64,000 bases of DNA from an uncultured Bacilli bacterium (GCA_944363525.1 CALVUF010000003.1:173776-237775), one strand, 5' to 3'; positions 142 to 51,769 are shown, counted from the stretch's first letter. Notes: generated from the sequence alone by a model not told the origin. A program made the numbers and translations.

Positions 142-2082
142 TTAGTCGGCGGCGACCAAATTGGTGAGGTAGACCGCGGCATAGTCGCTGGAAGTGCTAT
201 AGCCGCCGAAGTAAGCGGTGACGTTATAGGTCGCGCCGGTGGTGATGACGAAGGAGGAAGGGGTGTATGACGGTTCGATTAAGGCATCGGAACCATCGAT
301 CTTCAAGGTGAAGAAACTCTTTCCGTCCGCCGAGATCTTTCCGGCAGTCGAAGTCCAGGTGTACTTCTTGAGTTCGGTCATGGCGAAGCTTTCTTTCCCG
401 ACCCAGGAATCGGCGATTTCCGCGGTTAGCGGAGTGGCGGCCGGAATGGTGATGCCGAGGTCTTCGTTCAAGACGGTGACTTCGTCATCTTTGGTGAACT
501 GGTAGAAGCCATGATAGGAGCTGACCATGCCGGAGAGCTGGACCGCGGTCCCGATCTTATAGGTTGAAGGGACGGTGCTGTTGAGGTGGTAATAGATGGC
601 CGCGGTGCCATCATTGACTACAAAACCTTTGGTGGTGATGGCGTCAATCACCCCTTTGACGGTGTAATTGCCGACTTTGTTGATGTTGGCGATTTTGGTC
701 TCGGCCGGGCCGGTCGCGTCACCAGTCTTGGTCAAGGAGGTCAAATAGATGCTGGCGTAGGTCTTATAGAAGCCCCCGAAGTAAGCGGTGACGGTGTAAG
801 TCGCCCCGACTTCGATCGAGAAGTCGGAGGTCGGAGCGATGGCTTCGATCGTGGTATTGGAACCATCGACGGGGAAGAGGTAATACGTGGTCTGGCCTTT
901 GCTGCTGGTGACGGTGGTTTCGCCGGCGACGGCAGTCCAGGTGTATTCCTTGATTTCGTCGGTCCCGAAGTTCGACTTGGTGGCCCAGGAATCGGCGATC
1001 GCTTTGGTGAGCGCCGTCGGGGCCGCCGGGGTGATGCCGGATTGGCCGCTCAGGGCTTGGATCGAGGCGTTTTCGTAATCGAACTGGAAGGCGCCGTTGT
1101 AGGTGCTGACGGTCCCACTGGCCTCGACGTAGTCCCCGATGGAGAATTCGGCGGCGGCATCCCGGTCGTGGTAGTAGATGGAATCGGCCCCGTCGGTGAT
1201 GATCAAACCTTGGGTGGTCAAAGCGTCAACGACCCCGCGGACGGTGTAGGTTCCAGCACTGGTGATTTGGCCGATGGCATAGTCATCGGATGGCTCCGGA
1301 TCGGGATCCGGGGTCGGATCCTCGCCTTCGCTGGTCTTGGTGAGGCTGGTCAGATAGAAAGCGGCGTAGTTACCATACTTCTCTCCGGCATAGCCAGCGA
1401 AGTAAGCGGTGACCTCATAGGTCGCGCCTTCTTCGATGTTGAACTCGTCTGGTTTATAGGAGGGCTCGACGGTAACTTCCGATCCGGCAAGGTTCAAGGT
1501 GAAGTAATCGCCGCTCTTGCCAGCGGTCGCCTGCCACTTGTACTCTTTCATGTCGGTGACGGCGAAGCTGGTGGCCTTGCTCCATTTGTCGAGGTCGGCG
1601 GCGGTCAACGTCTTGGGCTCGGGGATGGTGTAAGACGGGGTCTCGCTGAGCTTGGCGATCTTGGCTTCGGCGGTGAATTGGAACATTCCGTTGAAAGCCC
1701 CGATTTTGCCCTCGACCTCAAGGTAATCGCCGATTGAATAGGCGCTCGGTTCGGCGTTTAGGTAGACGTAAACGGAGGCGGTCCCGTCGGTGATCACGAA
1801 CCCTTTGGTGGTTTTGGCGTCGACTACGCCCCGGACGGTGTAGGTCTGGTCTTTGGCTTCGATTTGGCTGATGGCGTATTCCTTGCTCGGCTCCGGGGTC
1901 GATTGTTCTTCGCTGCTGGAAGAGGAGGAGGAACCGGTGTCGACCGGGCTCGTTTGGCTATTCCCGGTGTCGGAGGGCGATTGAGTGGGGGAACTGCTGG
2001 TGGTGCCCGCCGGATCGCAGGAGGCGAGGGCGAGGGCGCTGCCGACGAGCAATAACGACATTAGTTGCTTGGCTTTCATCAT
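142..2082 (-). CDS. Surface lipoprotein (646 aa) built from three ~180-aa tandem repeats, each with a YhcR-type OB-fold (tRNA_anti-like) module plus an unknown module
   Basis: N-terminus MMKAKQLMSLLLVGSALALASC is a signal peptide with a lipobox. A Ser/Thr/Pro-rich linker follows. There are three repeats of Y-A-I-x-Q-I...TYTVRGVVDA.TT.GF.ITDG..S.Y.Y...IGDY.E..G.....G..QF, which is the OB-fold nucleic-acid-binding signature of extracellular nucleases such as YhcR. An AAGGA ribosome-binding site sits 4 nt upstream of the ATG. Confidence 0.8.
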   Translation of the reverse strand: MMKAKQLMSLLLVGSALALASCDPAGTTSSSPTQSPSDTGNSQTSPVDTGSSSSSSSEEQSTPEPSKEYAISQIEAKDQTYTVRGVVDAKTTKGFVITDGTASVYVYLNAEPSAYSIGDYLEVEGKIGAFNGMFQFTAEAKIAKLSETPSYTIPEPKTLTAADLDKWSKATSFAVTDMKEYKWQATAGKSGDYFTLNLAGSEVTVEPSYKPDEFNIEEGATYEVTAYFAGYAGEKYGNYAAFYLTSLTKTSEGEDPTPDPDPEPSDDYAIGQITSAGTYTVRGVVDALTTQGLIITDGADSIYYHDRDAAAEFSIGDYVEASGTVSTYNGAFQFDYENASIQALSGQSGITPAAPTALTKAIADSWATKSNFGTDEIKEYTWTAVAGETTVTSSKGQTTYYLFPVDGSNTTIEAIAPTSDFSIEVGATYTVTAYFGGFYKTYASIYLTSLTKTGDATGPAETKIANINKVGNYTVKGVIDAITTKGFVVNDGTAAIYYHLNSTVPSTYKIGTAVQLSGMVSSYHGFYQFTKDDEVTVLNEDLGITIPAATPLTAEIADSWVGKESFAMTELKKYTWTSTAGKISADGKSFFTLKIDGSDALIEPSYTPSSFVITTGATYNVTAYFGGYSTSSDYAAVYLTNLVAAD

Positions 2083-11355: not shown

Positions 11356-14300
11356 ATGTTTTGCTACGGTGATAAATTATATAAGGGCCATGCCATCCGC
11401 CTCCGTTATGATCCCGAGACCAACGCTGACCTCTGCCCCGACTTAGAGAAAAGGCTGGCGGCCTATAGTTCCCTTTATTTCCGGAAAGGCCACGCCGGCT
11501 ACCCCCGGGATTATGTCTTGCTAGACGAAGACGAAGAGGAATTGTTTTCCTTTTCCTTAGCCGATTGGACCATCGTCGCCTATGAAGTCGATGAAAAAGG
11601 AACCCCGTTATATGTCTTATTGGCCCATTTAGGTGGGTTCATTCCCTCTTATGTCGTGAATTTGGCTAATGGGGAGATCGCCGTCGCCTTGTTCGAGGAA
11701 TACCACGTGGTGGCCGAGGGACAGCATTATTGGCTCCGCGAACTCCGCAGCCTCTTCGACGACCCGAAATACATCCCTCTGGTTAGTCCTGGTCGACGGG
11801 TTAAACCCCGTTACGAAGAGGAGGAAGAGGAAGCCGACGTTCCGGAAGTGCAAGGCTATTTTCAGACTAACGCCAAAAAGAAGATAAGGAACCTCGGCTA
11901 TAGCCCCCGAAACGTGGAAGAAGAGGAAGAATCGGCCGAACAGCCGGATATCCCTGCCTTTGCCCCGCCGTTCACCCCGGGCTCGTCGAAGAAGCCCAAA
12001 CGGATCACCGGCTCCTTCGATCCCAAGCCGAAAATAGCCCCGGCGAACATCGGGCAATTCAAGAAACCGGCCTTTGAAGCCGAAAGGAAAGGGCCAATCC
12101 CCAACCTTGAAGCCAACCCCAATTACCGGAAGAAACCCAGCTACCGGACTTACGTCAAGGTCAACCCGACCTATGATTTCCGACCCGGGGCGGCCGTCTC
12201 CCGCAACACCTATTACCAGTTGGTCGGGAATCCGGCCAATTACTCGATCAAATCCCGAATCGAGAAGGAACTATCGAATGGCAAGCCCGAGTTCGATGAC
12301 CATTGCATCTATTGCCCGCGGGCCCTTCCTTCTGGCGACTTGGTCTACGACCTTTTAGCCGATTTCCGTCCGGAGGATTACGCCATTCTGGCTGCGGTCG
12401 GGAACCAAGCCAAAGTCGCCTCGCAGGTTTTGCTCCGCCATATCGGCGAGCCCTTGTTTTATCTTGTCCTTCAATTGGGACGGAAGAATAAACTGCCGAT
12501 CCTGGCCTATTCAAGCATTGACGTCTCGGTCGATAATAATTTCGTCTCCGGCAATTTCCTGTATTCGATCTACGAAAAGGAAAACGCGGTCGAAGAAAAG
12601 GCAGCGGAACCCGAGCCGGTTGTCACCCCCGAGCCAATCAAAGAAGAGCCGTTCGTTCCCACGGTCCCCGAACCTCCTTTGCCTGAAGCCCCAATCGAAG
12701 AGGAAGAGCCGGAAGTCGATTTCGACTTGGTCGAGGAACGGCGCTTATTCCGTTGTTTCCGTTTCCAGACCTCCTTGGCTAAACTCGTCGATAAGCATCC
12801 GGAGGCCGAAGAGGAGATCGCCAATCTGCAGAAAGAGATCATCACCCGGAGCGAAGGCAGTTTCCGGCAATATTTGGAAAGCCGGAACCACAAACAGATC
12901 AAAAAGATCCATAAGTTCCGCCTTAAGGGCGTCGATTACGCCGCCGCCCGAATTTTCTTCATCTTCGGTTCCGACGCCGCCCGTTATCCGAGCTTAGCCA
13001 ACCGGAATTTCCTCTCCTCCGATGTCTTGCTGCTTGACATCATTCCCCATGAGCAGCATGACCAGCAGGGCGAGTGGGCCGCCTTTTGGGAGGCTCGGTT
13101 GAAGGAGAACCGCTCTTTGCAGCTCGAACGGGTGTTCCTCGACGTCAACAAGAAGAAGACTGATTCGATTGCTTATCCAAGCGAAAAGCAATTCAATTTG
13201 CTCCGGAATGCCAGTTTGGTCCCACCGGTCGCCTTCATCGGCTCCGCCGGGACGGGAAAAACCATTCTTTCCTTGCAAAACTGCCTTGATTTACAAGGAA
13301 ATGGCTCAGTTCTGTATTTGACTTACGAGCCGGCTTTGCGGGATTATGCCGAGAAAAAGCTCTCGGAAATGGGGGCCAATAACGTCGAATGCTATACCTA
13401 CGCCGAGCTCGCTTCCTCCGAGCTTGGTGGGGCCAAGTTAGCCGATGAGGCTTACTTCCATTCCTTCCTGCTCGATTACTTGGATAAACGGCCTCCGCTA
13501 AGCAAAAAACTGAAAGCTATTGGCGGGTCAAGGGCCGCCCAAGCCAGCCGGGTGTATCTCTTCCTTCGGGGATTGATGTTCGGCTCGAAAGAGTGTGAAC
13601 AATCATCTAAATTGAGCCTTGATCAATTCCTATCCAAGATGGCCGATGAGCCTTCGATATCCAGCGAACTGGCTTCGGTTATTTACGAGATCGGGGTGGC
13701 TTATGAAAAGCAGCTTAAAGCCGATGGCCTCGCGACCGATAACCTCTTGGCTTGCCGGCTCATTAATAAGAAGAAACGGAGCCATTCCTATAGCGCGGTG
13801 GTCCTCGATGAATACCAGGATCTGACTGAGCTCCAGTTCATCTCCTTATTGCCGTATTTAGGGAGGAAGGAGACCCGACGGCTTTCCTTATATCTATATG
13901 GCGACGAGAACCAATGCGTCAACCCGACCATCTTCTCCTGGTCGCGGGCTAATGCCGCCTTGACCGAATACTTCGACCATTCATTCAAGATCTCGACCTT
14001 ATCCCTTGATGGCTCCTATCGAAGCGGCCCCAACCTTCTGGCTTTCATCAATAAGCTGAAAACCATCAAGAAGGAATCGATTGGGGCCCAGAAGCAGGAA
14101 CTCGACGCCGAGGAGAAATCCTTGCGGGAAGACCAAGAGGACCTCTTCGTCGCCTATATCGAGGAGAAAGGGAAGTTCGCCGATATCGTCAAAGTGGCCG
14201 CCCTTTCTGACGCCGACATCGTCTTCCTCTTCCCTTCGCCATCCTCTTGCAAAGCCAAGAAGGTCAGTTTGAAGCCGATTGAGGATCCGACCGTTCAAAC

Positions 14301-15060
14301 CTATATTCAAAGTTCCTTCCTCTCGGTCGGGGAAGCCAAAGGCCGGGAATGGGACGCGGTGGTCTTAGTCGATTTCCTAAGCGAATTCGGGGAGGAGTTT
14401 GCCGCTTGCTTAGAAGGCAAAGACTCCTCGACCCATGCCTCGACTATCCACCGGATGATGTTCAACCGGCTTTACGTCGGCTTGACCCGGGCCCGTAACC
14501 AGATCCTGATTTACGAGGAGGATGTTCCGGAGGTTTCAAAGGAAAAACTTTTAGTGAGCCTTGAGCCCTTGCCATTTGAGGATTATCGCTCCTTATTCCG
14601 CGACATCGTCGACCCGAAGCATTGGATCGCCCATGGGAAGCGGTTACTAGCCGAGCGCGATTACCTCGGAGCCAAACGGGCCTTCGAACGGGTAAAAGAA
14701 GACAAAGAAGGGGAACGGCTACTGAAGATCGCCGAAACCTACGTCCATTACGAGGATTGCCTCAACCTCCGCGATTCCTCTAATTGGGAAAGCGACTACA
14801 TCAATTTCCTTCTTAGCCAAAATGACCTCGCCCATCTTCGTGACCTCTATCGGAGATTGGGGCAAAAGGAGAAAGCCGATTTGCTCCATTTAACCCATAC
14901 CTCCCAGGAAGAAGGGGATGTGGTCGACTTATTCCGGAAGGTGGTGGAGCAATCCACTTTCTTAGAGAAAGCCACCTTCTTCGATTTCAGTTGCCGGAAA
15001 CTCGGCAAGAAGATAAAAAACGCCTTGAAAGGAGATAACGCCAATGGAAAACGCCGATGA
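11356..15060 (+). CDS. Large (1234 aa) protein: unknown N-terminal domain, an acidic/Pro-rich disordered linker, a UvrD/PcrA-like SF1 helicase core and a C-terminal TPR-like tail
   Basis: Helicase motifs: Walker A FIGSAGTGKT, motif II VVLDEYQDLTE, motif III YGDENQ, motif IV YRSGPN, motif VI YVGLTRARN. The N-terminal ~140 aa contain VLLDEDEE...YEVDEKG, a possible PD-(D/E)xK site. The linker contains PEPVVTPEPIKEEPFVPTVPEPPLPEAPIEEEEPE. A GAGGAAG ribosome-binding site precedes the start. Confidence 0.85.
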   Translation: MFCYGDKLYKGHAIRLRYDPETNADLCPDLEKRLAAYSSLYFRKGHAGYPRDYVLLDEDEEELFSFSLADWTIVAYEVDEKGTPLYVLLAHLGGFIPSYVVNLANGEIAVALFEEYHVVAEGQHYWLRELRSLFDDPKYIPLVSPGRRVKPRYEEEEEEADVPEVQGYFQTNAKKKIRNLGYSPRNVEEEEESAEQPDIPAFAPPFTPGSSKKPKRITGSFDPKPKIAPANIGQFKKPAFEAERKGPIPNLEANPNYRKKPSYRTYVKVNPTYDFRPGAAVSRNTYYQLVGNPANYSIKSRIEKELSNGKPEFDDHCIYCPRALPSGDLVYDLLADFRPEDYAILAAVGNQAKVASQVLLRHIGEPLFYLVLQLGRKNKLPILAYSSIDVSVDNNFVSGNFLYSIYEKENAVEEKAAEPEPVVTPEPIKEEPFVPTVPEPPLPEAPIEEEEPEVDFDLVEERRLFRCFRFQTSLAKLVDKHPEAEEEIANLQKEIITRSEGSFRQYLESRNHKQIKKIHKFRLKGVDYAAARIFFIFGSDAARYPSLANRNFLSSDVLLLDIIPHEQHDQQGEWAAFWEARLKENRSLQLERVFLDVNKKKTDSIAYPSEKQFNLLRNASLVPPVAFIGSAGTGKTILSLQNCLDLQGNGSVLYLTYEPALRDYAEKKLSEMGANNVECYTYAELASSELGGAKLADEAYFHSFLLDYLDKRPPLSKKLKAIGGSRAAQASRVYLFLRGLMFGSKECEQSSKLSLDQFLSKMADEPSISSELASVIYEIGVAYEKQLKADGLATDNLLACRLINKKKRSHSYSAVVLDEYQDLTELQFISLLPYLGRKETRRLSLYLYGDENQCVNPTIFSWSRANAALTEYFDHSFKISTLSLDGSYRSGPNLLAFINKLKTIKKESIGAQKQELDAEEKSLREDQEDLFVAYIEEKGKFADIVKVAALSDADIVFLFPSPSSCKAKKVSLKPIEDPTVQTYIQSSFLSVGEAKGREWDAVVLVDFLSEFGEEFAACLEGKDSSTHASTIHRMMFNRLYVGLTRARNQILIYEEDVPEVSKEKLLVSLEPLPFEDYRSLFRDIVDPKHWIAHGKRLLAERDYLGAKRAFERVKEDKEGERLLKIAETYVHYEDCLNLRDSSNWESDYINFLLSQNDLAHLRDLYRRLGQKEKADLLHLTHTSQEEGDVVDLFRKVVEQSTFLEKATFFDFSCRKLGKKIKNALKGDNANGKRR

Positions 15061-15502
15061 CAAGTTGATCAAGACCTTAGAGAGCCTTGAGCAATTAGAG
15101 GAGGACATCGCCTCAATTAAGGAAGTGGAGGAAAGCTTTGATAGCCGGCTCGCCGAATTATCCGACCAGGTCGAATCGCTCCATAACCGCCTAGGCGAAT
15201 ATAACCGCCAACTCGATGCCTTATCCTCCTGGGTCGAGAAGATCGAATCCTTTGCCAGCAAGTTCGCCGCCGTCAGCGCTTTGCTTGACCAGACCATGAA
15301 CGCCCTGACCAAGGAGACACTGGAAGCCACCGGGCAAAAACTCGACGAGGTCAAAGGGGCCTGCGAAGAGGTTGTCAGCAAACTTAATGAAGCCTCCGAG
15401 ACCAAGGAAAAGGAAAAAGAAGTCAAAACCGTCGGCAAAGGGATCAAATATGACCCGAAGAAGCGGAGCGGGGCCAAAGGGCAGGGGAAGAAAAAGAAAT
15501 GA
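15044..15502 (+). CDS. Coiled-coil protein (152 aa) with a Lys-rich C-terminal tail
   Basis: It overlaps the helicase gene end by 17 nt and the downstream gene by 4 nt (ATGA). The sequence is a heptad-like, E/L/S-rich helix ending in GAKGQGKKKK. Confidence 0.55.
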   Translation: MENADDKLIKTLESLEQLEEDIASIKEVEESFDSRLAELSDQVESLHNRLGEYNRQLDALSSWVEKIESFASKFAAVSALLDQTMNALTKETLEATGQKLDEVKGACEEVVSKLNEASETKEKEKEVKTVGKGIKYDPKKRSGAKGQGKKKK

Positions 15503-16404
15503 GCCGGGATCCCGCCGTCGTCTCCTTCACCATGAGCCATATCAAAGGCAAGGATACGGGGATCGAATTAAAACTAAGGAAGCGGCTATACTCCGATGGC
15601 TTCCGATTCTTAACCAATTCCAAACGGGCGTTCGGCCATCCGGATATTCTCTTTCCCGGGATTCGGCTGGCTGTCTTCGCCGATTCGGAGTTTTGGCATG
15701 GGTATAAATTCGCGGAAAATGAAGCCAAACTCGCAACCCATCGGGATTATTGGGTAGCGAAGATTAAACGGAACATGGCCCGGGACGCGGAAGTGAACGC
15801 TGAGTTGGCCAAGCAAGGATATAAGGTCCTCCGTTATTGGGGCTTTGAGATCAATAAGGATTTCAAAAGAGTCATCGCGGAAATCGAGGATGCCGTAAGG
15901 TTACGGCAACAAGCGTTGGCGCTGGCTAAACGTCCTAAGGAATTCACCACCTTAAGCTATTACAAGCAAGGCTCCAAATATCTGCTGCTTTATCGCGACA
16001 AGAAGAGAAACGATCTGAATGAGGGTAAGTATTTAGGCATCGGAGGCCATGTCGAAGAGGGCGAAACCTACCTTGAAGCCAGTAGACGGGAATTCGCCGA
16101 AGAGACCGGATTAACCGTCAGCAAACAGGCCTATTTAGGGCGGATCGATTTCGTCGCTTTCCCCTCCTACGCCGAACGGATGTATTTGTTCCGGGTCGAG
16201 GAAACGATAGGGCAACTAAACACCAACTGCGACGAAGGGGAACTCCGTTATGTCGAGGAAAACGACATTTTTAGTCTCCCGATGTGGGAAGGGGACAAAG
16301 TCTTCTTGCCCCGGCTCCTCTCCAACACCCGTTTTCGCCTGACTTTGATCTATCAGAACGGCCAATTAATCGACGTTATTGGGCCGATTGACGTCAAGAG
16401 TTGA
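15499..16404 (+). CDS. vsr: Very-short-patch-repair (Vsr) endonuclease fused to a Nudix hydrolase
   Basis: The N-terminal half aligns with Vsr: MSHIKGKDTGIELKLRKRL; GHPDILFP; FADSEFWHGY, with the D/D/H catalytic positions kept. The C-terminal half has a perfect Nudix box, GGHVEEGETYLEASRREFAEETGL. Confidence 0.85.
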   Translation: MSRDPAVVSFTMSHIKGKDTGIELKLRKRLYSDGFRFLTNSKRAFGHPDILFPGIRLAVFADSEFWHGYKFAENEAKLATHRDYWVAKIKRNMARDAEVNAELAKQGYKVLRYWGFEINKDFKRVIAEIEDAVRLRQQALALAKRPKEFTTLSYYKQGSKYLLLYRDKKRNDLNEGKYLGIGGHVEEGETYLEASRREFAEETGLTVSKQAYLGRIDFVAFPSYAERMYLFRVEETIGQLNTNCDEGELRYVEENDIFSLPMWEGDKVFLPRLLSNTRFRLTLIYQNGQLIDVIGPIDVKS

Positions 16405-16507
16405 AGCGGCGGCAAAAAAGTTTATTTTTCTTATTGACCTAGACTTCGCTTTGACTAAAATATGCGTTGCCCGATGGAAGGCCCGACCCCTAGCCCTTCC
16501 ATCGGGT

Positions 16508-16516
16508 TTTTGTGTT
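16508..16516 (+). promoter_or_regulatory. Extended -10 TGtTATATT, 14 nt upstream of the candidate ATG at 16531
   Basis: Read directly. Confidence 0.4.
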
Positions 16517-16530
16517 ATATTAGCCGCGTT

Positions 16531-17103
16531 ATGGAAAAAGCCACGATCGATGTCTCCCCAAAAGAGATCTACGCCGACGGGAAAGCCGGTGGATATCTAT
16601 TATCGGCCTTAAACCAATTTTGCCCCGATTTAGCCCCGAACGTCTCCTATTTATTCGTCGGCTATTCCTTGCTTGACCAAGACCTCTATGGGGCGTTGTT
16701 TGATTTAGCGATGATCAGCCTCTCCTCCTTGGTCTTAAAACGCCAGCTCCTCATTGGCCAAGACGAGACCAAATTGCCGGAGTGGGGGGATTTCCCGCCC
16801 GACCCGAATCAGGAGAAGTTTCTAAAACTCTCCGAGGTCTTAATCGGCAGTTTGACGGTGAACCTCGCCAATAAGGAAGGGATGGACCTCATCGATTGCT
16901 TTGGTCCAGCCCAAGCGATGGCCGGGGCTCTCTATGAAGGGATCCGCGATGGGTATAATGAGGATAGCGAAGACAAAAAGCAGGCTTTGGCCCATTTTAA
17001 GGACATCTATCTAAGCAGTCCCGACAAGCAAAGCCATTTTATCGAAATAACCAAAGGGCTCGAGCGGATTCTCCTCGAAACCTCGTTTAGGAGCGCAGCA
17101 TGA
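16531..17103 (+). CDS. Hypothetical protein (start uncertain; the ORF track begins at 16462)
   Basis: Continuous ORF with a short overlap into the downstream aminopeptidase gene. No recognizable motif. Confidence 0.45.
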   Translation: MEKATIDVSPKEIYADGKAGGYLLSALNQFCPDLAPNVSYLFVGYSLLDQDLYGALFDLAMISLSSLVLKRQLLIGQDETKLPEWGDFPPDPNQEKFLKLSEVLIGSLTVNLANKEGMDLIDCFGPAQAMAGALYEGIRDGYNEDSEDKKQALAHFKDIYLSSPDKQSHFIEITKGLERILLETSFRSAA

Positions 17104-23587: not shown

Positions 23588-24316
23588 TTATAAGTCGATA
23601 TCGGAGAGCAAATAGGTCTCGTTCGAGGCGCTGGTATCGTCTTCCGAGGGTTCAACCACTGGGAGTTGGGCTTCGTAAAGCTGGCTGGCCTCATCGACTT
23701 GCTCGTTTAGGCCTAACCGGAGGGCGCCGGCTCTCGAGATCTGGGCGACCCCGACCCCGACGGCGGCGACGAAGCAGGAGAAGATGCCGAGCAAAGAAGC
23801 GTAAAGCTGTTTCTTCTTTTTGGTCCGGATTTGGCCCGAGCGGATACTGGCGGCCAAGTTGGTGTCCATCATCATCGGGTTCTTATAAAGGATATAGCTC
23901 GATTCGAGGTTGAATTCCTCAAGCAGCCGGTCGATGAAAGTCAGCGTCGGGACCGCGTCGCCTAATTCATAGGAACGGAGGCTGCGGACTGAAGCGCCGG
24001 TTTTGACGGCGAGTTCGTTTTGGGTTAAGCCGCGGGCATTGCGGAAGAACTGCAATTGGACTGAGATGATTTCCGGATCCAAGGGCTTATTGACGATTTG
24101 ACTGTCGTTTTCCCGTCTGGCGAACAAATCGTCGAGGGTTAGGTTCAAGGCGTTGGCTAAGCTTGGGGCGACGAGCAAGGAAATCGAAAGGCGGCCAGCC
24201 TCGAATTTCGAGAAGGCCTGGGGCGAGTAGCCGACGTAGCTGGCTAACTCAGTCTGGGTGAGGCGGAGCAATTTCCGTCTCCGTTCCACGAATTTTCCAA
24301 TCGGTTCCTTTTTCAT
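23588..24316 (-). CDS. Membrane-tethered XRE-family HTH regulator (N-terminal HTH, second HTH-like segment, one TM helix, C-terminal extracytoplasmic tail)
   Basis: LRLTQTELASYVGYSPQAFSKFEAG is an XRE helix-turn-helix. LYASLLGIFSCFVAAVGVGVA is a transmembrane helix. A TACAAT box on the minus strand (24331-24326) lies 9 nt upstream of the ATG at 24316. Confidence 0.7.
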   Translation of the reverse strand: MKKEPIGKFVERRRKLLRLTQTELASYVGYSPQAFSKFEAGRLSISLLVAPSLANALNLTLDDLFARRENDSQIVNKPLDPEIISVQLQFFRNARGLTQNELAVKTGASVRSLRSYELGDAVPTLTFIDRLLEEFNLESSYILYKNPMMMDTNLAASIRSGQIRTKKKKQLYASLLGIFSCFVAAVGVGVAQISRAGALRLGLNEQVDEASQLYEAQLPVVEPSEDDTSASNETYLLSDIDL

Positions 24317-24434
24317 TGCCTTCGCATTGTAGGATAGAATTGGCAAAAGTTGATAAACTTTTTTGCCGGTTTTTGGCTATTTACCCAAACTAGATCGCCC
24401 TTTATCATTTAATCGATGTTTCCTGGAGGCAAAA

Positions 24435-25217
24435 ATGGTCGCGACTAATCCCTATACCCTTTTCGGCGTCGATTTCGGATCCAACCCCGGACAACGGGAA
24501 TTGATCCGCCAGATCAATGAGGACCCGGCGCGGAAGCCGGTCGTCTTCTGCGTCGGGGCGGCCGGGACGGGCAAGACCTTCGCCGCCTTAGCCGGGGCCC
24601 TATCCTTAGTAAGAGGCAAAGGGGCGAAGAAGAAATACAAGACCCTTTTCTACGTCCGCGAGCCGGTCGAGATCGGTCATCGGCTCGGTTACCTCAAAGG
24701 GACCGAGGAAGATAAGTACGCCCCTTACTTAGGGCCGTTGCTCGATAACTACAACCACTTAATGCAGAAAGCTAGGAATGAAGGGGTCATCCCGGAGAAG
24801 GTAAGGCAGCCGAAGAAGCTGAAGGGGATCTTAGAGGACGAGGACCTGATGCCCAAGGCTTATCAGAAGCTCCCCAACGATATCGTCCCCCTAGCCCCCG
24901 AGTTCATGCGGGGCCGGTCGTTCGAGAACTGCATAATCTTAGTCGACGAGGCCCAGAACCTGACCCTCGATGAACTGCAGACTTTAGTCACCCGGATCGG
25001 GGAATACACCAAGATGGTCATCATTGGGTCCCCCAATCAGATCGATATACCGGGGATGGACGAGGAGAACAACGCTTTCATGACCGCTTATAGGATTTTG
25101 GAACCGACCGGGCTAGTGGGGTATGTCGAACTCCTTAACCCGATGCGGTCCTCCTTCGTCGCCGACTTCGACCTCCGCTTCGTCGAATACAAGATGGCCC
25201 ACAAGAAGGGGAAGTAG
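24435..25217 (+). CDS. PhoH-like P-loop ATPase
   Basis: A GGAGG sits 5 nt upstream of the start MVATNPY. Walker A is GAAGTGKT and Walker B is ILVDEAQN, with IIGSPNQID near the C-terminus. Confidence 0.85.
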   Translation: MVATNPYTLFGVDFGSNPGQRELIRQINEDPARKPVVFCVGAAGTGKTFAALAGALSLVRGKGAKKKYKTLFYVREPVEIGHRLGYLKGTEEDKYAPYLGPLLDNYNHLMQKARNEGVIPEKVRQPKKLKGILEDEDLMPKAYQKLPNDIVPLAPEFMRGRSFENCIILVDEAQNLTLDELQTLVTRIGEYTKMVIIGSPNQIDIPGMDEENNAFMTAYRILEPTGLVGYVELLNPMRSSFVADFDLRFVEYKMAHKKGK

Positions 25218-25220
25218 GAT

Positions 25221-26429
25221 ATGGAAAAAGTATCGCAAATCAAATCGGATGGTTCGTTAGTTTTAGATTACGATTCCTCATACACTCGCACGGAAATATT
25301 CAAGGTGCTGCAAGAACTTTTCGGCGATCGTGTTAGGAAGGACCGGAAACAATTTATCGTTTCCAGTAAAGTCGCATTGCTTGTCAAAAACATAACTTTC
25401 CTTGGCCATTCTTGGACTGCCGACAAAAAGAGAATGCAACTGCCGGATTACTATCCGAAGTATGTTTTGGACAATTCAGGGAAGGGTCTTCAATCGGTTT
25501 ACCTCGGTATTTATCACTATCGAGATGTCCGGTTGTATGTCGTTTATGACCCCAATCAATTCATTGATAAAAAGAGTCACAATTCTTCAGCTCATGTTAA
25601 CGTCTTTAACTTGCAGTACGCCCAGTTAAACGGTTATTTCAGCAAGCGAGATCGCAATGGGAACGACGTTCGCGTATATAAAAAAGATGGGTTCGTCGAT
25701 TATATTAGTCGCTTGATTGCTGACGAGAAGGTTGATCTATTAAGTGAAGTCGACCAATTCCTGGCTAACTGTGCCACCGACATATCTAAATTCATTCCCA
25801 AGAAATGGAATGCGATTGAATGCATGAAGGAAATGCGTGACGCAGGATTCAACAATTATCGGCAAAACCGCTGGGAGGGATGGTATTTTGAATTCCTAGT
25901 TCAAAAATACTTAAAAGGAAACCCGACGTCTAAATTGGTTTGGCACAACGATAAAACCAAAGAAGGCATCGATTTCGATATGGTAATCAGCAAAGAAAAA
26001 GCGATTTACCTTGATCTTAAGACGCATTCTAGCGGCGATTCAATTATGGGAAACACAATCGAGAGTTTCGAAAAAGTTGTCGAGGATCACGATGGCCGAG
26101 TTTACTATTTGTGTCTGGACTTGAAAGCGGAAAAGGATTCTGACCACGGCTATGTCGCAACTAAATTTTGGAATACCCTGCGCGACCACCCGGAAACAGA
26201 CGAGGAAAAATTGATTAACGAGTCTGGGAAGAATTTCAAATACAGCGTGGAAGTCGTCGGTATTTGCCTTCTTTCCATTAATAGGATTAGTTTTGAAATC
26301 CTTAAACAGAAGCCGTTTAACCAAGGGCATAATTCCGACGGTAAGCCAAGGAAACCCAAGGTTAACGTGGCCAAGAAATACATCGATGACTTGACCATTT
26401 ATTATCAGGATTTAACTAAAGAAAAATAG
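25221..26429 (+). CDS. Putative Type II restriction endonuclease (402 aa) paired with the downstream m5C methyltransferase
   Basis: Its GC is clearly lower than its neighbours. It sits immediately upstream of the C5-MTase. GIDFDMVISKEKAIYLDLK is a candidate PD-(D/E)xK site. There is no similarity to anything else in the window. Confidence 0.5.
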   Translation: MEKVSQIKSDGSLVLDYDSSYTRTEIFKVLQELFGDRVRKDRKQFIVSSKVALLVKNITFLGHSWTADKKRMQLPDYYPKYVLDNSGKGLQSVYLGIYHYRDVRLYVVYDPNQFIDKKSHNSSAHVNVFNLQYAQLNGYFSKRDRNGNDVRVYKKDGFVDYISRLIADEKVDLLSEVDQFLANCATDISKFIPKKWNAIECMKEMRDAGFNNYRQNRWEGWYFEFLVQKYLKGNPTSKLVWHNDKTKEGIDFDMVISKEKAIYLDLKTHSSGDSIMGNTIESFEKVVEDHDGRVYYLCLDLKAEKDSDHGYVATKFWNTLRDHPETDEEKLINESGKNFKYSVEVVGICLLSINRISFEILKQKPFNQGHNSDGKPRKPKVNVAKKYIDDLTIYYQDLTKEK

Positions 26430-26476
26430 TTAAGAAAAAGCTAGCTTTTCTCGAACAAAGCTAGTACAATTGGGCT

Positions 26477-27646
26477 ATGCCAATTAAAGAAAATTTCGCT
26501 TTTATAGACCTCTTCTCCGGCATCGGTGGGTTCCATCAAGCCATGACGGCTTTCGGCGGTCATTGCGTGTTGGCCTCCGATATCGATCCGGATGCTGTTA
26601 AGGTTTATAAAACCAATTACGGAATTGATTCCAATATCAATGTTCGCAACATTAAAGACGACATGGTACCCGATCACGAGGTTTTATGCGCCGGATTCCC
26701 TTGCCAGGCCTTCTCGAAAGCCGGCAAGCAAAAAGGTTTTATGGACCAAACTCGCGGTACCTTGTTTTTCGAAGTGGCGAGGATTCTTAAGGCTAAGCGA
26801 CCTAAGTACATTATGCTTGAGAACGTTCGCAATCTAGTAAGTCACGATAACGGAAATACCTATCGGACCATTTGCTCGGTCTTAAAAGAATTAGGATATA
26901 GGATACCCGATCAGTCTTTAATTCTTTCCCCTCATCAATTTGGGGTTCCGCAAATTCGCGAACGGATTTATATCCCTGGGGTTTATGATCCTGACCATGT
27001 TTCTGAACCGATTTTCATTGAGTTTGATCATTTGTTGAATAAATCTGACAATTCAATCGATTCGGTGTTGGAAGAAGGGCCGGTTGATCCGCTTTACTCT
27101 ATTTCCGAGCATGTTCTTGATGTCTTGACGGCTTGGGATGAGTTTTATCACGGGGTCGACGTCAAGGTTATTGGCTTCCCCGTTTGGTTTGATCATTTTT
27201 TGGATAAATCCATTGATCCTTCTCTGCCTGAATGGAAACAAACTTTCCTTAGGAAAAATCGCGAGCTTTACTTAAGGAATAAAGAGTTTATCGATGATTG
27301 GTCAAAAAAGTGGAAACATCTAAAAGGCTTCACTCCGACGGAGCGAAAGTTTGAGTGGCAATGTGGCACATCGCTTAATTCGATTTTCGAGGCCGTTATT
27401 CAAATGCGGCCATCGGGCATTCGGGTTAAGAAGCCTGATTGTTTCCAGGCTTTAGTGGCCTTGGTTCAAACACCGATTATCGGGAAGCTTAAGCGGAAGT
27501 TGACTGTGCGTGAGGCTGCAAGGCTGCAATCTTTTCCCGATTCTTTTAAACCCGACCCGAAGACGGGGCAAGCCTATAAGCAATTTGGCAATTCCGTGAA
27601 TATAAATGTCGTGAAAGAAGTCTTTGCCAAATTGATCCAATATTAG
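26477..27646 (+). CDS. dcm: DNA (cytosine-5)-methyltransferase, Dcm-like
   Basis: Motif I FSGIGGF, motif IV GFPCQAFS, motif VI LENV, motif VIII QIRER, motif IX REAARLQSFPD, motif X QFGNSV. GC is lower than the window average. Confidence 0.9.
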   Translation: MPIKENFAFIDLFSGIGGFHQAMTAFGGHCVLASDIDPDAVKVYKTNYGIDSNINVRNIKDDMVPDHEVLCAGFPCQAFSKAGKQKGFMDQTRGTLFFEVARILKAKRPKYIMLENVRNLVSHDNGNTYRTICSVLKELGYRIPDQSLILSPHQFGVPQIRERIYIPGVYDPDHVSEPIFIEFDHLLNKSDNSIDSVLEEGPVDPLYSISEHVLDVLTAWDEFYHGVDVKVIGFPVWFDHFLDKSIDPSLPEWKQTFLRKNRELYLRNKEFIDDWSKKWKHLKGFTPTERKFEWQCGTSLNSIFEAVIQMRPSGIRVKKPDCFQALVALVQTPIIGKLKRKLTVREAARLQSFPDSFKPDPKTGQAYKQFGNSVNINVVKEVFAKLIQY

Positions 27647-44334: not shown

Positions 44335-44972
44335 TCGCGCCGCTTCTTGAGGTTCCGCCATAAGATCATGATGATCTCAATCGGGACCCCGGCCACCATC
44401 AATAACCATAAATCATCCCGTTGGGTACCGAGTGGTATGACGATTAATAGGGCCCATAAGGCGCAGGAAGCGAGGATCAAGGTCCCTAAGGAATTATGGT
44501 AGAAAAGATGGGTCTCGGCCGCCATTAGGAACAGGCCGATCGGGATCATCCAGAGGAACACCGGCCATAAGCCGTTTTTGTCTATGCTCTCATCGGTGAA
44601 GAAATAACGCGAGAAGAAGACGGCGATGGCGATGAGGATCAAGACGGCCAAGGTCATGGCCATGATGGTCGGCCGGTTGACGTCTTTGGGCTGGACCGAG
44701 GCGGTCTCCTTGACTTCCTCCTCCTGGTGCTCGCTGACTAAGAAATCGAGGGTCACCCCGTAGAAGGAGGCAAAATCCAAAAGGATGTCGACGCTTGGCA
44801 AAGCATAGCCTAATTCCCATTTAGAGATCGATTTGTCGGAATAATTGATTTGCCGGGCGAGATCCTGCTGGGTCATCCCTTTGGCTTTCCGAAGGGTTTG
44901 CAGATTCTTGCCGACGACGGCGGGAAGGTTTTCCATAGGCGATATTTTGTCCTTTTCTAGCCCCTTAATCAA
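44331..44972 (-). CDS. Membrane-tethered XRE-family HTH regulator (HTH plus 4 TM)
   Basis: LRKAKGMTQQDLARQINYSDKSISKWELG is an XRE helix-turn-helix, followed by four hydrophobic helices. The start is either a TTG at 44972 overlapping the upstream stop, or the ATG at 44936. Confidence 0.7.
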   Translation of the reverse strand: MIKGLEKDKISPMENLPAVVGKNLQTLRKAKGMTQQDLARQINYSDKSISKWELGYALPSVDILLDFASFYGVTLDFLVSEHQEEEVKETASVQPKDVNRPTIMAMTLAVLILIAIAVFFSRYFFTDESIDKNGLWPVFLWMIPIGLFLMAAETHLFYHNSLGTLILASCALWALLIVIPLGTQRDDLWLLMVAGVPIEIIMILWRNLKKRRD

Positions 44973-47900: not shown

Positions 47901-48379
47901 TCGTCTTCGACTGGGCCGTTCTCATCGGTCACGTCCATTGAAGACAAGGAGACTTTATAGGATAGTTCAACCTCGTCATAACGGGTGGGATCGGTCAATT
48001 GGACATAGAGCCAATCGTTATGAAGGTTCAAAGTTAGGTTGAGCGATTGCTCGTTATAGGTTAATGGCAAGTCGGCGAATAGCGATATGCCGTGCATCGA
48101 GAAGGAAGAAATGGCAAGATCAAGCCGCCCATCGTTGATCTTAATGACGTTATCGACGCCTCCGAGATCGATGGCTCCTTGGATATCAAGACTCAACCCT
48201 TCGGCGAGCGAGGAAAGCAATTGCTGGGGGAAAGAGGGCGCGTTCAAAGTGGGTTCATTGGTCGCGTCGGTGCTTTCTTCCGGCTGGGCCGTCGCTTTAT
48301 TCTTTGGCGAATAGGAAGCGAGGAGCAGGGAAGGGAAGAGAAACAACGGGAGGATATGGGAATAAACCCTTTTACCCAT
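44969..48379 (-). CDS. Giant (1136 aa) membrane-anchored or secreted beta-rich protein, paralog A
   Basis: N-terminal signal/TM LPLFLFPSLLLASYS. Long runs of alternating hydrophobic residues (LNLTLNL, LDLAISSF). It shares motifs with paralog B. Confidence 0.85.
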   Translation of the reverse strand: MGKRVYSHILPLFLFPSLLLASYSPKNKATAQPEESTDATNEPTLNAPSFPQQLLSSLAEGLSLDIQGAIDLGGVDNVIKINDGRLDLAISSFSMHGISLFADLPLTYNEQSLNLTLNLHNDWLYVQLTDPTRYDEVELSYKVSLSSMDVTDENGPVEDELTGGIIYYDYGMLDYCIDTILNAITDGGYQYQVSQSKTSPIDAMAVLESLNNISLDPAYDDNAHYLWELPLGEMTLPIGLVGNGILEAINLPNTDSYFVNDGIGYSLNATLTDRKANFAVDPAALEYPELNDSLELFKKIALLAVAPQFNLSTGEDGVTVKHSEEAYDGGDYGFARPAIEETAIMKLDSSVDVGGGNLKGLSIAASTSCNNHSQSLQIDLVDDNAYLSLNGVVNAYSELSTINALINSLGDVFGEAAASYDVLFAFLKLNDFISPILNSSLIASLREGRYEEIITLVDSLHNEDNKIVATLDLDKVGLKGQVALTLDGKSNELARIELKEAGASNLTFDGTITIENYVAPESIDPTLYHHLTHLPTLADGLASFNEARNGSFEITGYFGKLSESSVPSELPDLAYMQTGFGFQGQAAFDVESESGMANLTVYDRKAEYRNNHHLQLSYSDQGYVDSQGEKKNSLLFHYDSKNSEKIPDGESGSRTNPNDADGLNGRMEEATFASIFKVAKTFLTSSDPRFERLTNMFSSVMNSGLIYLLTNSKFLEAISSEFIIAASFSEARDSVSFSPDAFGTSEPIEIALNYGENGLDSIELSTAIGSAESLQNVYIRIENMESKEVNEIKQQIAEVFGGAAYTFTDFSTLGSLMDYLEGSLTLGATVENGYTSTYRLTGSLTIDMPVYDEIKTNFDAFIRLQGSEIMMFFSLNEPLKNVMNIGFSLTRTSGTRYVNLYYYINGNDTANPDGWAYVEQYDVESFLFSSSAAARTAKIKGENFNANLLGHILQTTLGYRDLVQSIIDGIKIDTTKAIHGEDLLKGFSSTLDSKGNPSWTFNLGLAAIPMQMLGSSSDVAQLSDLPLTIGSSTLNNGGKTLSSFAGSLSVSVASILNVNVSFNGSLTNIENGVYQDVFASDYIVNGLVTGVSSRNITTTNASIASFYRDRFYDKDNKQYSAAFNNAKELIEPTYDY

Positions 48380-48382
48380 CGC

Positions 48383-51754: not shown

Positions 51755-51769
51755 GGATATCGCCTCCGA

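What the first reader, a model, noticed from the sequence alone, without database searches (positions are those of the whole stretch)
11356..16404. Tightly coupled three-gene operon: a large UvrD-like helicase with a novel N-terminal extension, a coiled-coil protein, and a Vsr::Nudix fusion. Candidate uncharacterized DNA-repair or defense module.
What the sequence shows: three co-directional ORFs overlapping by 17 nt and 4 nt (ATGA), so they are probably translationally coupled.

Gene 1 (1234 aa) has a complete SF1 UvrD-type motif set (GSAGTGKT, DEYQD, GDENQ, YRSG, VGLTRARN). These sit in the C-terminal half only. They are preceded by an unknown ~140-aa N-terminal domain carrying a possible PD-(D/E)xK-like VLLDEDEE...YEVDEKG signature, a ~300-aa acidic/proline-rich low-complexity linker, and a second unknown domain. 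A TPR-like tail follows.

Gene 2 is a 152-aa coiled coil ending in a Lys-rich tail.

Gene 3 is a bona fide Vsr endonuclease domain, with its catalytic D...D...H positions conserved, fused to a canonical Nudix box.

Established knowledge: Vsr nicks 5' of the T in T:G mismatches that arise from 5mC deamination. Vsr-like (DUF559) nuclease domains recur fused to SF1 helicases and as effectors in anti-phage systems. A Vsr–Nudix fusion operonic with a dedicated helicase is not a described arrangement that I know of.

Inference: this is either a specialised mismatch or damaged-base excision module, with the helicase unwinding the Vsr-nicked strand and the Nudix sanitising modified dNTPs or processing a nucleotide-derived DNA adduct, or it is a helicase/nuclease defense system.
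Basis: partly seen in the sequence, partly recalled or inferred. Interest (0 to 1): 0.78.

Follow-up and report, generated by a model that had tools for sequence, protein, structure and literature searches.

The report
Vsr–Nudix repair operon with helicase
An uncultured gut bacterium has extended its ordinary repair gene for mutations at methylated cytosines by fusing it to a nucleotide-cleaning enzyme and pairing it with a fast-evolving protein of unknown fold, here joined to a helicase, which is a new arrangement of mostly known parts and not a new kind of system.

Summary
The three overlapping genes are real, at the stated coordinates, and recur unchanged on 12 metagenomic contigs. Gene 3 is a genuine Vsr T:G-mismatch nickase fused to an MTH1-like Nudix hydrolase; the fusion family has at least 120 clusters, all in uncultured gut Bacilli (nearest named genus Candidatus Alloenteromonas). 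Comparison of about 35 related loci shows stepwise accretion at one fixed chromosomal site, downstream of Sel1–ABC–ABC: unfused vsr; then Vsr–Nudix; then an upstream orphan "N-module" (two copies of a novel domain around a disordered linker with 2–5 copies of a basic motif); and, in six lineages including this one, that N-module fused to a divergent SF1A ATPase (closest folds HelD, Rep, PcrA) plus the coiled-coil gene. The helicase half and the coiled-coil gene always occur, and are absent, together. The N-module accompanies 16 of 18 fused loci and 0 of 16 unfused ones. A C5-cytosine methyltransferase lies 10 kb downstream. Flanks are housekeeping genes, inheritance is vertical, and no phage or plasmid copy exists, so a mobile defence island is unlikely. 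The proposed PD-(D/E)xK site in the N-terminus is refuted. Best reading: an elaborated very-short-patch repair module. The roles of the Nudix domain, N-module and helicase are inferred, not shown.

The parts
11356..15060 (+). Gene 1 (1234 aa): N-module fused to an orphan mid-domain, a divergent SF1A ATPase and a helical tail ('long form')
   Evidence: ORF. Orthologues of 1240-1290 aa, homologous end to end, in L001/7, L005/6, L011 and L015, plus a partial one in L016.
11356..11775 (+). N1 domain (aa 1-140): orphan alpha/beta domain, first copy
   Evidence: AF2 pLDDT about 65-86 for residues 9-136. No PDB fold, PDB profile, Pfam or PADLOC match. Only hydrophobic positions are conserved.
11776..12210 (+). 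Disordered linker (aa 141-285) with acidic patches and repeats of the motif F-x4-5-K-K-[P/K]-x-N-L. The regex finds 2 copies here (aa 169 and 240), and a third, variant copy at about aa 206 is visible by eye.
   Evidence: Predicted disordered. The motif is conserved in alignments A2/A3. There are 2-5 regex hits per protein against 0.2-0.5 in shuffles.
12211..12585 (+). D2 domain (aa 286-410): second copy of the N1-type domain
   Evidence: hhalign of N1 vs D2 profiles gives probability 97.7 %, E = 2e-12 over 107 columns. Short-form proteins end just after this domain.
12586..12735 (+). Acidic/proline-rich connector (aa 411-460), the junction between the N-module and the helicase half
   Evidence: Sequence. 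The short forms lack everything from here onward.
12736..13140 (+). Mid-domain (aa 461-595): confidently folded beta-alpha3-beta4-alpha domain of unknown family, with invariant R, K, R, H and Q positions
   Evidence: AF2 pLDDT about 90. Invariant columns. No Pfam hit in 19 orthologues and no significant PDB profile hit.
13141..14535 (+). SF1A ATPase/helicase core (aa 596-1060) with motifs I-VI intact
14536..15057 (+). All-helical TPR-like tail (aa 1061-1234)
   Evidence: AF2 helices 614-767 of the model. Weak profile hits to consensus TPR proteins. Fast-evolving, 19-45 % identity.
15044..15502 (+). Gene 2 (152 aa): coiled-coil protein with a conserved N-terminal MENADDKLIKTLE motif and a Lys-rich tail; strictly co-occurs with the helicase half
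   Evidence: ORF and AGGAG RBS. Orthologues occur only in long-form loci. Alignment A6. Only generic coiled-coil matches.
15499..15903 (+). Gene 3, Vsr domain (aa 1-135): T:G-mismatch nicking endonuclease, zinc-less subtype
   Evidence: TIGR00632 100.6 bits vs cut-off 97.85. Alignment to 1CW0. Catalytic and DNA-contact positions are invariant in 31 sequences and the Zn ligands are replaced.
15946..16386 (+). Gene 3, Nudix domain (aa 150-296): MTH1-like pyrophosphohydrolase with a canonical Nudix box
   Evidence: Pfam NUDIX 52.8 bits. Best PDB matches are MTH1/NUDT1 at E = 3e-11 and B. halodurans MutT 3FK9. Nudix box GGHVEEGETYLEASRREFAEETGL. Nearest annotated relatives are named '8-oxo-dGTP diphosphatase'.
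26477..27646 (+). C5-cytosine DNA methyltransferase: the probable source of the 5mC whose deamination creates Vsr's substrate. It is context only and not part of the operon.
   Evidence: Pfam DNA_methylase 266 bits. TIGR00675 269 bits vs cut-off 100.65. It follows PhoH (24363-25217) and MTaX1 (25221-26429) in a low-GC patch.

Best explanation
This is a lineage-specific elaboration of very-short-patch (VSP) repair in a group of uncultured gut Bacilli.

Shown:
- vsr is an old, vertically inherited core gene at a fixed site downstream of Sel1-ABC-ABC.
- In one clade it became fused to an MTH1-like Nudix hydrolase.
- The fused form is almost always preceded, with translational coupling, by an orphan 'N-module' protein.
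- In some lineages, including this window, the N-module is fused to a divergent SF1A ATPase and is followed by a small coiled-coil protein.
- The helicase half and the coiled-coil gene are present together or absent together.

Inferred mechanism:
- The Vsr domain nicks 5' of the T in T:G mismatches made by deamination of 5-methylcytosine, which the genome's own C5-methyltransferase(s) deposit.
- The fused Nudix domain hydrolyses an aberrant (d)NTP at the repair site, so the short resynthesis patch is not rebuilt with damaged or methylated precursors. Candidates are 5-methyl-dCTP or an oxidised or alkylated dNTP.
- The N-module acts as a non-catalytic scaffold or regulator that binds or restrains the nickase through its duplicated domain and repeated basic motifs.
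- The optional SF1A motor with its coiled-coil partner unwinds the nicked strand, or clears proteins from the site, to assist excision.
For: Vsr identity. The score is above the curated cut-off. The equivalents of E. coli E25, D51, H69, F67, W68, W86, K89, N93, M14 and I17 are invariant in 31 family members (the residue roles come from my knowledge of the E. coli Vsr-DNA crystal structures).

Nudix identity. The Nudix box is canonical and the domain resembles MTH1 through the C-terminal MW..D..F.P motif. There is precedent for Nudix enzymes acting on methylated dNTPs: NudG and MutT on 5-methyl-dCTP (PMC3744803) and MTH1 on O6-methyl-dGTP (PMC6237811).

Source of 5mC. A C5-MTase lies at 26477-27646. 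The same 'DSEFWH' Vsr subtype sits directly beside C5-MTases in dozens of other lineages.

Housekeeping character. The synteny Sel1-ABC-ABC-GNAT-[module]-AmpP-HisPhos-melibiase is conserved. The Vsr and ABC_b trees broadly agree. GC content is the same as the surroundings. No phage or plasmid carries a copy.

Functional linkage. The N-module is present in 16 of 18 Vsr-Nudix loci and in 0 of 16 unfused-Vsr loci. Gene overlaps or gaps of at most 10 nt are conserved. The helicase half and gene 2 always co-occur, and long and short forms are interleaved on the tree, which implies repeated joint loss. The ATPase motifs are all intact.
Against: - No biochemical activity was tested.
- The vsr gene is not adjacent to the methyltransferase, unlike the canonical arrangement, and I could not show that every genome in the clade has a C5-MTase.
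- The Nudix substrate is unknown. The MTH1 base-recognition positions N33 and D119 are not conserved (alignment; residue roles from memory), and the MutT equivalog score is far below its cut-off.
- Classical VSP repair needs no dedicated helicase, and ten lineages do without this one.
- The N-module, the tail and gene 2 evolve very fast, at 14-45 % identity where Vsr-Nudix is 50-73 %. That pattern is more typical of conflict systems or of relaxed constraint.
- The best structural neighbour of the ATPase is HelD, an RNA-polymerase recycling factor and not a repair helicase.
Confidence: 0.5

Rival explanations
1. It is a chromosomally fixed conflict or defence system. The Vsr-like nickase and the Nudix domain would attack invader DNA or its modified nucleotide pool. 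The SF1A ATPase would act as sensor or motor (as GajB, Nhi or AbiO-type helicases do), and the fast-evolving disordered N-module would be a trigger-binding or negative-regulatory component.
For: There are weak PADLOC matches: the helicase core to GajB/AbiO/Nhi models (E down to 3e-11, partial), gene 3 to a 'Vsr' model, and the Nudix domain to candidate PDC-S07. The N-module, tail and gene 2 diverge rapidly. Modules are gained and lost. A PhoH-MTaX1-C5-MTase cassette lies 8 kb downstream, and MTaX1 is described as a probable modified-DNA discriminator in R-M-type systems (PMC10853773). That paper also describes fast-evolving, mostly disordered small proteins as predicted regulators in other defence systems.
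Against: The locus is fixed, its flanks are housekeeping genes, and inheritance is vertical across a deep lineage. GC content shows no anomaly. No PADLOC hit exists for the N-module in 17 members, and no partner protein of any known system, such as GajA, is present. Neither the fusion nor gene 1 occurs on phages or plasmids. The T:G-mismatch recognition residues are invariant, which suits repair more than indiscriminate attack. Unfused vsr occupies the same locus in sister clades with no such partners.
Confidence: 0.2
2. The helicase half and gene 2 are functionally unrelated to Vsr-Nudix. They would form a HelD-like RNA-polymerase or protein-displacement factor, with a trans-acting coiled coil, that happened to fuse to the upstream gene and is simply co-transcribed. 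Only the N-module plus Vsr-Nudix pair would be a functional unit.
Against: The covalent fusion to the N-module is conserved in all six long-form lineages, and almost every end-to-end relative of the helicase half in 1.8 billion proteins sits behind a long N-terminal region. Translational coupling to gene 3 is conserved. HelD is only marginally ahead of Rep, PcrA and FBH1. The HelD equivalog score is far below its cut-off (28.8 vs 543).
Confidence: 0.17
3. The N-module is mainly an inhibitor (antitoxin-like or DNA-mimic) of a potentially mutagenic or toxic Vsr-Nudix nickase, so the pair would behave as a toxin-antitoxin-like addiction or regulatory module and not as a repair complex.
For: The upstream gene is translationally coupled, fast-evolving, rich in acidic patches and largely disordered. 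It has no catalytic-looking conserved residues. It appears only with the fused form.
Against: Two lineages carry Vsr-Nudix without any N-module (L013, L092), so the fusion is not lethal when unguarded. Unfused Vsr needs no such partner. At 370-520 aa, with two folded domains and basic repeats, the protein is unlike typical antitoxins.
Confidence: 0.08

Closest known systems
Vsr / very-short-patch repair endonuclease (E. coli Vsr, PDB 1CW0/1VSR; TIGR00632, PF03852)
   Same: The score is above the family cut-off. The catalytic Asp/His/Glu positions, the intercalating Phe/Trp/Trp positions and the mismatch-contact Lys/Asn positions are all conserved. The genome encodes a C5-methyltransferase.
   Different: The structural zinc site is absent and H64 is Asp. 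The domain is fused to a Nudix domain. The gene is not adjacent to its methyltransferase. It is embedded in an operon with an orphan partner protein, with or without an SF1A ATPase and a coiled-coil protein.
MTH1/NUDT1- and MutT-type Nudix nucleotide-pool sanitising enzymes (e.g. PDB 5OTN, 1IRY, 3FK9); NudG as a 5-methyl-dCTPase precedent
   Same: It has a canonical Nudix box and MTH1-like overall sequence, including the Trp and Asp of the C-terminal MW..D..F.P motif. Its nearest annotated relatives are named 8-oxo-dGTP diphosphatase.
   Different: The MutT equivalog score is far below its cut-off. Two MTH1 base-recognition positions are not conserved. The substrate is unknown. It is covalently tethered to a DNA nickase.
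SF1A helicases of the UvrD/PcrA/Rep class and HelD (helicase IV-like RNAP recycling factor)
   Different: Identity is only 12-20 %. No equivalog model is met. It has a unique N-terminal architecture (duplicated orphan domain, motif-repeat linker, orphan mid-domain) and a TPR-like tail. It is not the genome-wide housekeeping orthologue type.
Gabija (GajA/GajB) and other UvrD-like defence helicases (Nhi, AbiO, DRT-associated)
   Same: There is partial, weak profile similarity over the helicase core.

Membership tests
Vsr endonuclease (TIGR00632 / PF03852) | Profile score above the curated cut-off | tested here: met
   TIGR00632 100.6 bits vs 97.85; PF03852 71.3 vs 27.
Vsr endonuclease (TIGR00632 / PF03852) | Catalytic residues equivalent to E. 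coli D51 and H69 (plus E25) | tested here: met
   D49, H67 and E23 align to them and are invariant in 31 sequences. H64 is replaced by an invariant Asp.
Vsr endonuclease (TIGR00632 / PF03852) | DNA-intercalating and mismatch-contact residues (F67, W68, W86, K89, N93, M14, I17) | tested here: met
   All equivalents are invariant. The residue roles come from my knowledge of the Vsr-DNA structure.
Vsr endonuclease (TIGR00632 / PF03852) | Structural zinc site (C66, H71, C73, C117) | tested here: not met
   The ligands are replaced by E, Y/F, F/Y and a variable residue in all 31 members. The same DSEFWH subtype is widespread next to C5-MTases, so the site is evidently dispensable.
Vsr endonuclease (TIGR00632 / PF03852) | Cognate C5-cytosine methyltransferase adjacent (typical, not strictly defining) | tested here: not met
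   None is adjacent in any Bacilli-clade locus. One lies 10 kb downstream in the window.
Vsr endonuclease (TIGR00632 / PF03852) | T:G-specific nicking 5' of T | not testable with these tools
   Requires an enzyme assay.
Nudix hydrolase (PF00293) | Nudix box GX5EX7REUXEEXGU and a profile score above the cut-off | tested here: met
   52.8 bits vs 21.1. The box is intact and its Gly/Glu/Arg residues are invariant.
MutT / MTH1 8-oxo-dGTPase | Equivalog-level score and conserved base-recognition residues (MTH1 N33, D119, D120, W117) | tested here: not met
   TIGR00586 28 bits vs 97.9. In the MTH1 alignment W and D120 are kept, but N33 becomes L/I and D119 becomes G (residue roles from memory).
UvrD / PcrA / Rep (SF1A repair or replication helicases) | SF1 motifs I-VI and the SF1A fold | tested here: met
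UvrD / PcrA / Rep (SF1A repair or replication helicases) | Orthology (equivalog model cut-offs) | tested here: not met
   UvrD 22.4 vs 965; PcrA 16 vs 911; RecB 13.8 vs 696.
HelD (RNAP-associated helicase IV-like) | Equivalog score; an N-terminal coiled-coil domain for the secondary channel in the same chain; RNAP binding | tested here: not met
Gabija or other catalogued defence systems (PADLOC) | All cognate components present (e.g. GajA with GajB) | tested here: not met
   Only partial core hits to GajB/AbiO/Nhi models. The N-module has no hit in 17 members. No GajA-like gene is in the operon.
PD-(D/E)xK nuclease (proposed for the gene-1 N-terminus) | Conserved D...(D/E)xK catalytic motif on a restriction-endonuclease-like fold | tested here: not met
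   The candidate acidic residues vary across the family. There is no fold or profile match.
RelE/HigB/ParE-like fold (my own idea for the mid-domain) | Profile or fold match to toxin families | tested here: inconclusive
   No Pfam hit in 19 orthologues at E <= 10 and no PDB profile hit. The isolated domain could not be given its own fold search.

The most novel reading that the evidence does not exclude
The orphan N-module would be the hub of a previously unrecognised DNA-surveillance machine. Its repeated basic motifs and duplicated domain would recruit several Vsr-Nudix units, or a replisome or RNA-polymerase component. The HelD-like ATPase with its trans-acting coiled coil would couple mismatch nicking to transcription or to protein clearance. 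That would amount to a transcription- or replication-coupled 5mC-deamination repair pathway, or alternatively a chromosomally domesticated anti-invader system, with no described counterpart.
Probability: 0.2. Interest if true: 0.75.

Novelty: new variant of a known kind. Interest (0 to 1): 0.5.

Why it matters
VSP repair is regarded as a minimal, single-enzyme addition to C5-methylation systems. Here the nickase is covalently joined to a nucleotide-pool hydrolase and tied to a dedicated partner protein of unknown fold, sometimes with its own motor. If these parts work together, this would be a first natural example linking lesion incision on DNA to sanitation of the local dNTP pool. It would also offer a tractable entry point to a new protein domain and a new short linear motif in bacteria. 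The graded series of natural variants is a ready-made deletion series for experiments: vsr alone; Vsr-Nudix; Vsr-Nudix plus N-module; and all of these plus helicase and coiled coil. If the parts do not work together, the finding is a lineage-restricted gene fusion of modest interest.

Tried and rejected
1. PD-(D/E)xK nuclease in the gene-1 N-terminus: rejected, because the residues are not conserved and no fold or profile match exists.
2. RelE/HigB-like fold for the mid-domain (my idea, from the KFRF...RvFY...VLL pattern): no Pfam or PDB profile support, so left open.
3. A single-sequence database search with the N-module found only one close relative. An alignment query found 16, which suggests the word-index prefilter misses this fast-evolving family.
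4. The N-module structure was only partly predictable (mean pLDDT 48; N1 about 75), and Foldseek against the PDB gave nothing below E = 0.2.
5. Mobile-element origin: no tRNA or Rfam element in the window, no GC anomaly at the operon, and no phage or plasmid copy.
6. PHROGs gave only generic helicase, endonuclease and Nudix families.
7. The promoter/terminator scan was not enriched over shuffles. The TTGACC-16-TAAAAT element after gene 3 is only suggestive.
8. Motif-depletion analysis for the methylase target: GCGC is the most depleted 4-mer palindrome (O/E 0.57), but 64 kb cannot separate methylation from restriction avoidance.
9. Standalone relatives of the Nudix half are not linked to Vsr, and only one (L049) has a C5-MTase nearby.
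10. Literature searches for a Vsr-Nudix fusion found nothing relevant.


Full report
OBSERVATION. They overlap by 17 nt and 4 nt. A GAGGA precedes gene 1. A canonical AGGAG lies 10 nt upstream of the gene-2 ATG, inside the end of gene 1. Genes 2 and 3 share an ATGA stop/start. The exact gene-3 protein occurs on 12 metagenomic contigs from several samples with an identical gene layout, so this is a real, recurrent locus. GC content (0.51-0.53) matches the surroundings.

DOMAIN CALLS. Gene 3 matches Vsr (PF03852 71 bits; TIGR00632 100.6 bits against a cut-off of 97.85) and NUDIX (52.8 bits). I aligned it to E. coli Vsr (1CW0) and tabulated 31 family members. The equivalents of E25, D51, H69, F67, W68, W86, K89, N93, M14 and I17 are invariant. 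H64 is always Asp. All four zinc ligands are replaced (the residue roles come from my knowledge of the Vsr structures). The Nudix box is canonical. The best solved relatives are MTH1/NUDT1 (E = 3e-11) and a Bacillus MutT, but the MutT equivalog score is far below its cut-off.

Gene 1 has only weak Pfam hits to UvrD-helicase, AAA_19 and UvrD_C_2 in residues 621-1051, and tiny scores against the UvrD, PcrA, RecB and helicase IV equivalogs. Gene 2 gives only generic coiled-coil matches.

THE FUSION IS A FAMILY. A database search with gene 3 returned 323 relatives. The best 120 clusters, at 48-95 % identity, nearly all show the same Vsr+NUDIX architecture (one is annotated with the Vsr half only). 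Where they are named, the name is 'DNA mismatch endonuclease Vsr' from Bacilli or Bacillota MAGs. The nearest named genomes are Candidatus Alloenteromonas pullicola (66 %) and Ca. A. pullistercoris (57 %).

COMPARATIVE ANATOMY OF THE LOCUS. I combined tblastn and iterative profile searches over the loci fetched. They show one chromosomal site, downstream of Sel1-ABC-ABC and usually a divergent GNAT, in four states:
- (i) Unfused vsr, preceded by a lipoprotein gene or the GNAT. 16 loci.
- (ii) Vsr-Nudix with no special partner. L013 and L092.
- (iii) Vsr-Nudix preceded by a 370-520-aa protein with no Pfam domain (the 'short form'). 10 lineages.
- (iv) Vsr-Nudix preceded by a ~1240-1290-aa protein plus a coiled-coil gene (the 'long form'). 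The window, L001/7, L005/6, L011, L015 and L016.

The short-form protein is homologous to residues ~1-400 of gene 1. It accompanies the fused Vsr in 16 of 18 loci and the unfused Vsr in 0 of 16. Gene-2 homologues occur in every long-form locus and in no other.

On both an ABC_b (species-proxy) tree and a Vsr tree, the Vsr-Nudix clade holds together, apart from the partial L016 sequence in the Vsr tree. Long and short forms are interleaved within it. Because the long forms are homologous end to end, repeated joint loss of the helicase half plus gene 2 is the parsimonious history. Downstream synteny (orphan 213-aa gene, aminopeptidase P, His_Phos, melibiase, LD-carboxypeptidase, HTH, PhoH, MTaX1) is shared with L001 at 57 % gene-3 identity, and with L005 at 66 % as far as PhoH. 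This is a vertically inherited core region and not an island.

THE N-MODULE. It consists of a first domain N1 (aa 1-140), a ~145-aa disordered linker, and a second domain D2 (aa 286-410). The linker carries acidic patches and 2-5 copies of the motif F-x4-5-K-K-[P/K]-x-N-L, against 0.2-0.5 expected in shuffles. D2 is a duplicate of N1 (hhalign probability 97.7 %, E = 2e-12). AF2 gives N1 moderate confidence as a beta-rich alpha/beta domain and predicts the linker as disordered. Foldseek against the PDB, a PDB profile search, Pfam and PADLOC all give nothing. No polar residue is invariant in N1, which argues for a scaffold or regulator and against an enzyme.

DIVERGENCE GRADIENT. The comparison uses the same genome pairs throughout:
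- ABC_b: 59-74 % identity
- Vsr: 49-73 %
- Nudix: 50-61 %
- Helicase core: 38-57 %
- Mid-domain: 24-47 %
- Gene 2: 25-41 %
- Tail: 19-45 %
- N1 and D2: 14-39 %

The accessory parts evolve several-fold faster than the enzymatic core.

METHYLATION CONTEXT. In distant lineages (Clostridia, archaea and others) the same DSEFWH-type Vsr nearly always has a C5-methyltransferase directly beside it. The Bacilli clade never does. The window does encode a C5-MTase at 26477-27646 (Pfam 266 bits; TIGR00675 269 bits). It sits behind PhoH and MTaX1 genes in a low-GC patch. MTaX1 is described as a probable modified-DNA discriminator found in R-M systems (PMC10853773). GCGC is the most depleted 4-mer palindrome (O/E 0.57), which is suggestive only.

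MOBILITY AND DEFENCE TESTS. The window has no tRNA or Rfam element. PADLOC gives only partial core matches to GajB, AbiO and Nhi, a Vsr model, and candidate PDC-S07 for the Nudix domain. No phage or plasmid record covers 80 % or more of gene 3. Gene 1 has no phage match at all and only 23-26 % identity to generic plasmid UvrD-like genes. PHROGs gives generic families only.

INTERPRETATION. Three things are shown. (1) Gene 3 is a bona fide Vsr-type mismatch nickase fused to an intact MTH1-like Nudix hydrolase. (2) It is evolutionarily bound to an orphan partner module. (3) The SF1A ATPase and the coiled-coil gene form an optional unit that is gained or lost as a whole.

The rest is inferred. 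Vsr would nick T:G mismatches arising from 5mC deamination. The Nudix domain would remove an aberrant dNTP at the repair site, with precedents in NudG and MutT on 5-methyl-dCTP (PMC3744803) and MTH1 on O6-methyl-dGTP (PMC6237811). The N-module would scaffold or restrain the nickase. The ATPase with its coiled-coil partner would assist strand or protein displacement. I put this at about 0.5.

The main rivals are these. A chromosomally fixed defence or conflict system, at about 0.2, is favoured by the fast-evolving accessory parts and the weak PADLOC hits, and disfavoured by vertical inheritance, housekeeping context and invariant T:G-recognition residues. A functionally unrelated HelD-like factor that merely fused in, at about 0.17. 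An inhibitor-nuclease pair, at about 0.08.

NOVELTY AND SCORE. All the catalytic parts belong to known families, so this is a new variant of a known kind and not a new kind. The new elements are the Vsr-Nudix fusion, which I could not find described in the searchable literature; the duplicated orphan domain with its repeat motif; the orphan mid-domain; and the natural series of locus states. Interest is 0.5.

Noticed in passing
window 23588-27646: There is an HTH regulator on the minus strand, then PhoH-like ATPase, an MTaX1-domain protein and a C5-cytosine methyltransferase, in a low-GC patch (0.445-0.484 against about 0.52). The same HTH-PhoH-MTaX1 order occurs at the equivalent position in L001 and L086. 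It looks like a methylase-associated (R-M-like) cassette with no obvious restriction endonuclease.
   Followed up: partly
window, whole 64 kb: GCGC is the most under-represented 4-mer palindrome (O/E 0.57), followed by CTAG (0.61). CTCGAG is the most depleted 6-mer palindrome (z = -4.8). CpG overall is not depleted (1.12). This may reflect the methylase target or restriction avoidance.
   Followed up: partly
window 44969-52726 (minus strand): Three consecutive ORFs of 1136, 1123 and 318 aa have no Pfam hit (E <= 1e-4). The two large ones were also scanned against NCBIfam, with no hit at E <= 1e-10. This is a large block of completely unannotatable coding sequence.
   Followed up: partly
window 16462-17103: A 213-aa orphan ORF lies immediately downstream of gene 3, with no hit in Pfam, NCBIfam, PADLOC or PHROGs. 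It is conserved at 24-40 % identity in L001, L005/6, L013 and L015 but absent from the short-form loci. A promoter-like TTGACC-16-TAAAAT ends right at its annotated ATG, so the true start may be an internal Met.
   Followed up: partly
L009, L019, L028, L032 (GTDB record titles): Contigs titled 'uncultured Bacteroidales', 'Escherichia coli' and 'Sodaliphilus sp.' carry the Bacilli-type Sel1-ABC-ABC-Vsr synteny. A contig titled 'Thermoplasmatales archaeon' carries a Vsr about 50 % identical to this one but without that synteny. These are probably mis-binned or mislabelled MAG contigs.
   Followed up: no
alignment A1 (Vsr-Nudix family) and window 15450-15502: Most Vsr-Nudix proteins end in a Lys/Arg-rich tail of about 10-25 residues. 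The window's gene 3 and its closest relative lack it, while the window's gene 2 carries such a tail. This may be a movable DNA-binding appendage.
   Followed up: no
L092 5202-6975; L089 4904-6004: These look like intermediate or variant states. L092 has Vsr-Nudix preceded by a lipoprotein-like gene, the same kind of neighbour as in the unfused-Vsr clade (no detectable sequence similarity between them), so the Nudix fusion seems to predate the N-module. L089 has a 366-aa N-module with N1 and the repeats but no D2 domain.
   Followed up: partly
window 142-2082 (minus strand): A 646-aa ORF has a weak match to the ExeM/NucH extracellular endonuclease family (E = 1e-11, far below the cut-off).
   Followed up: no
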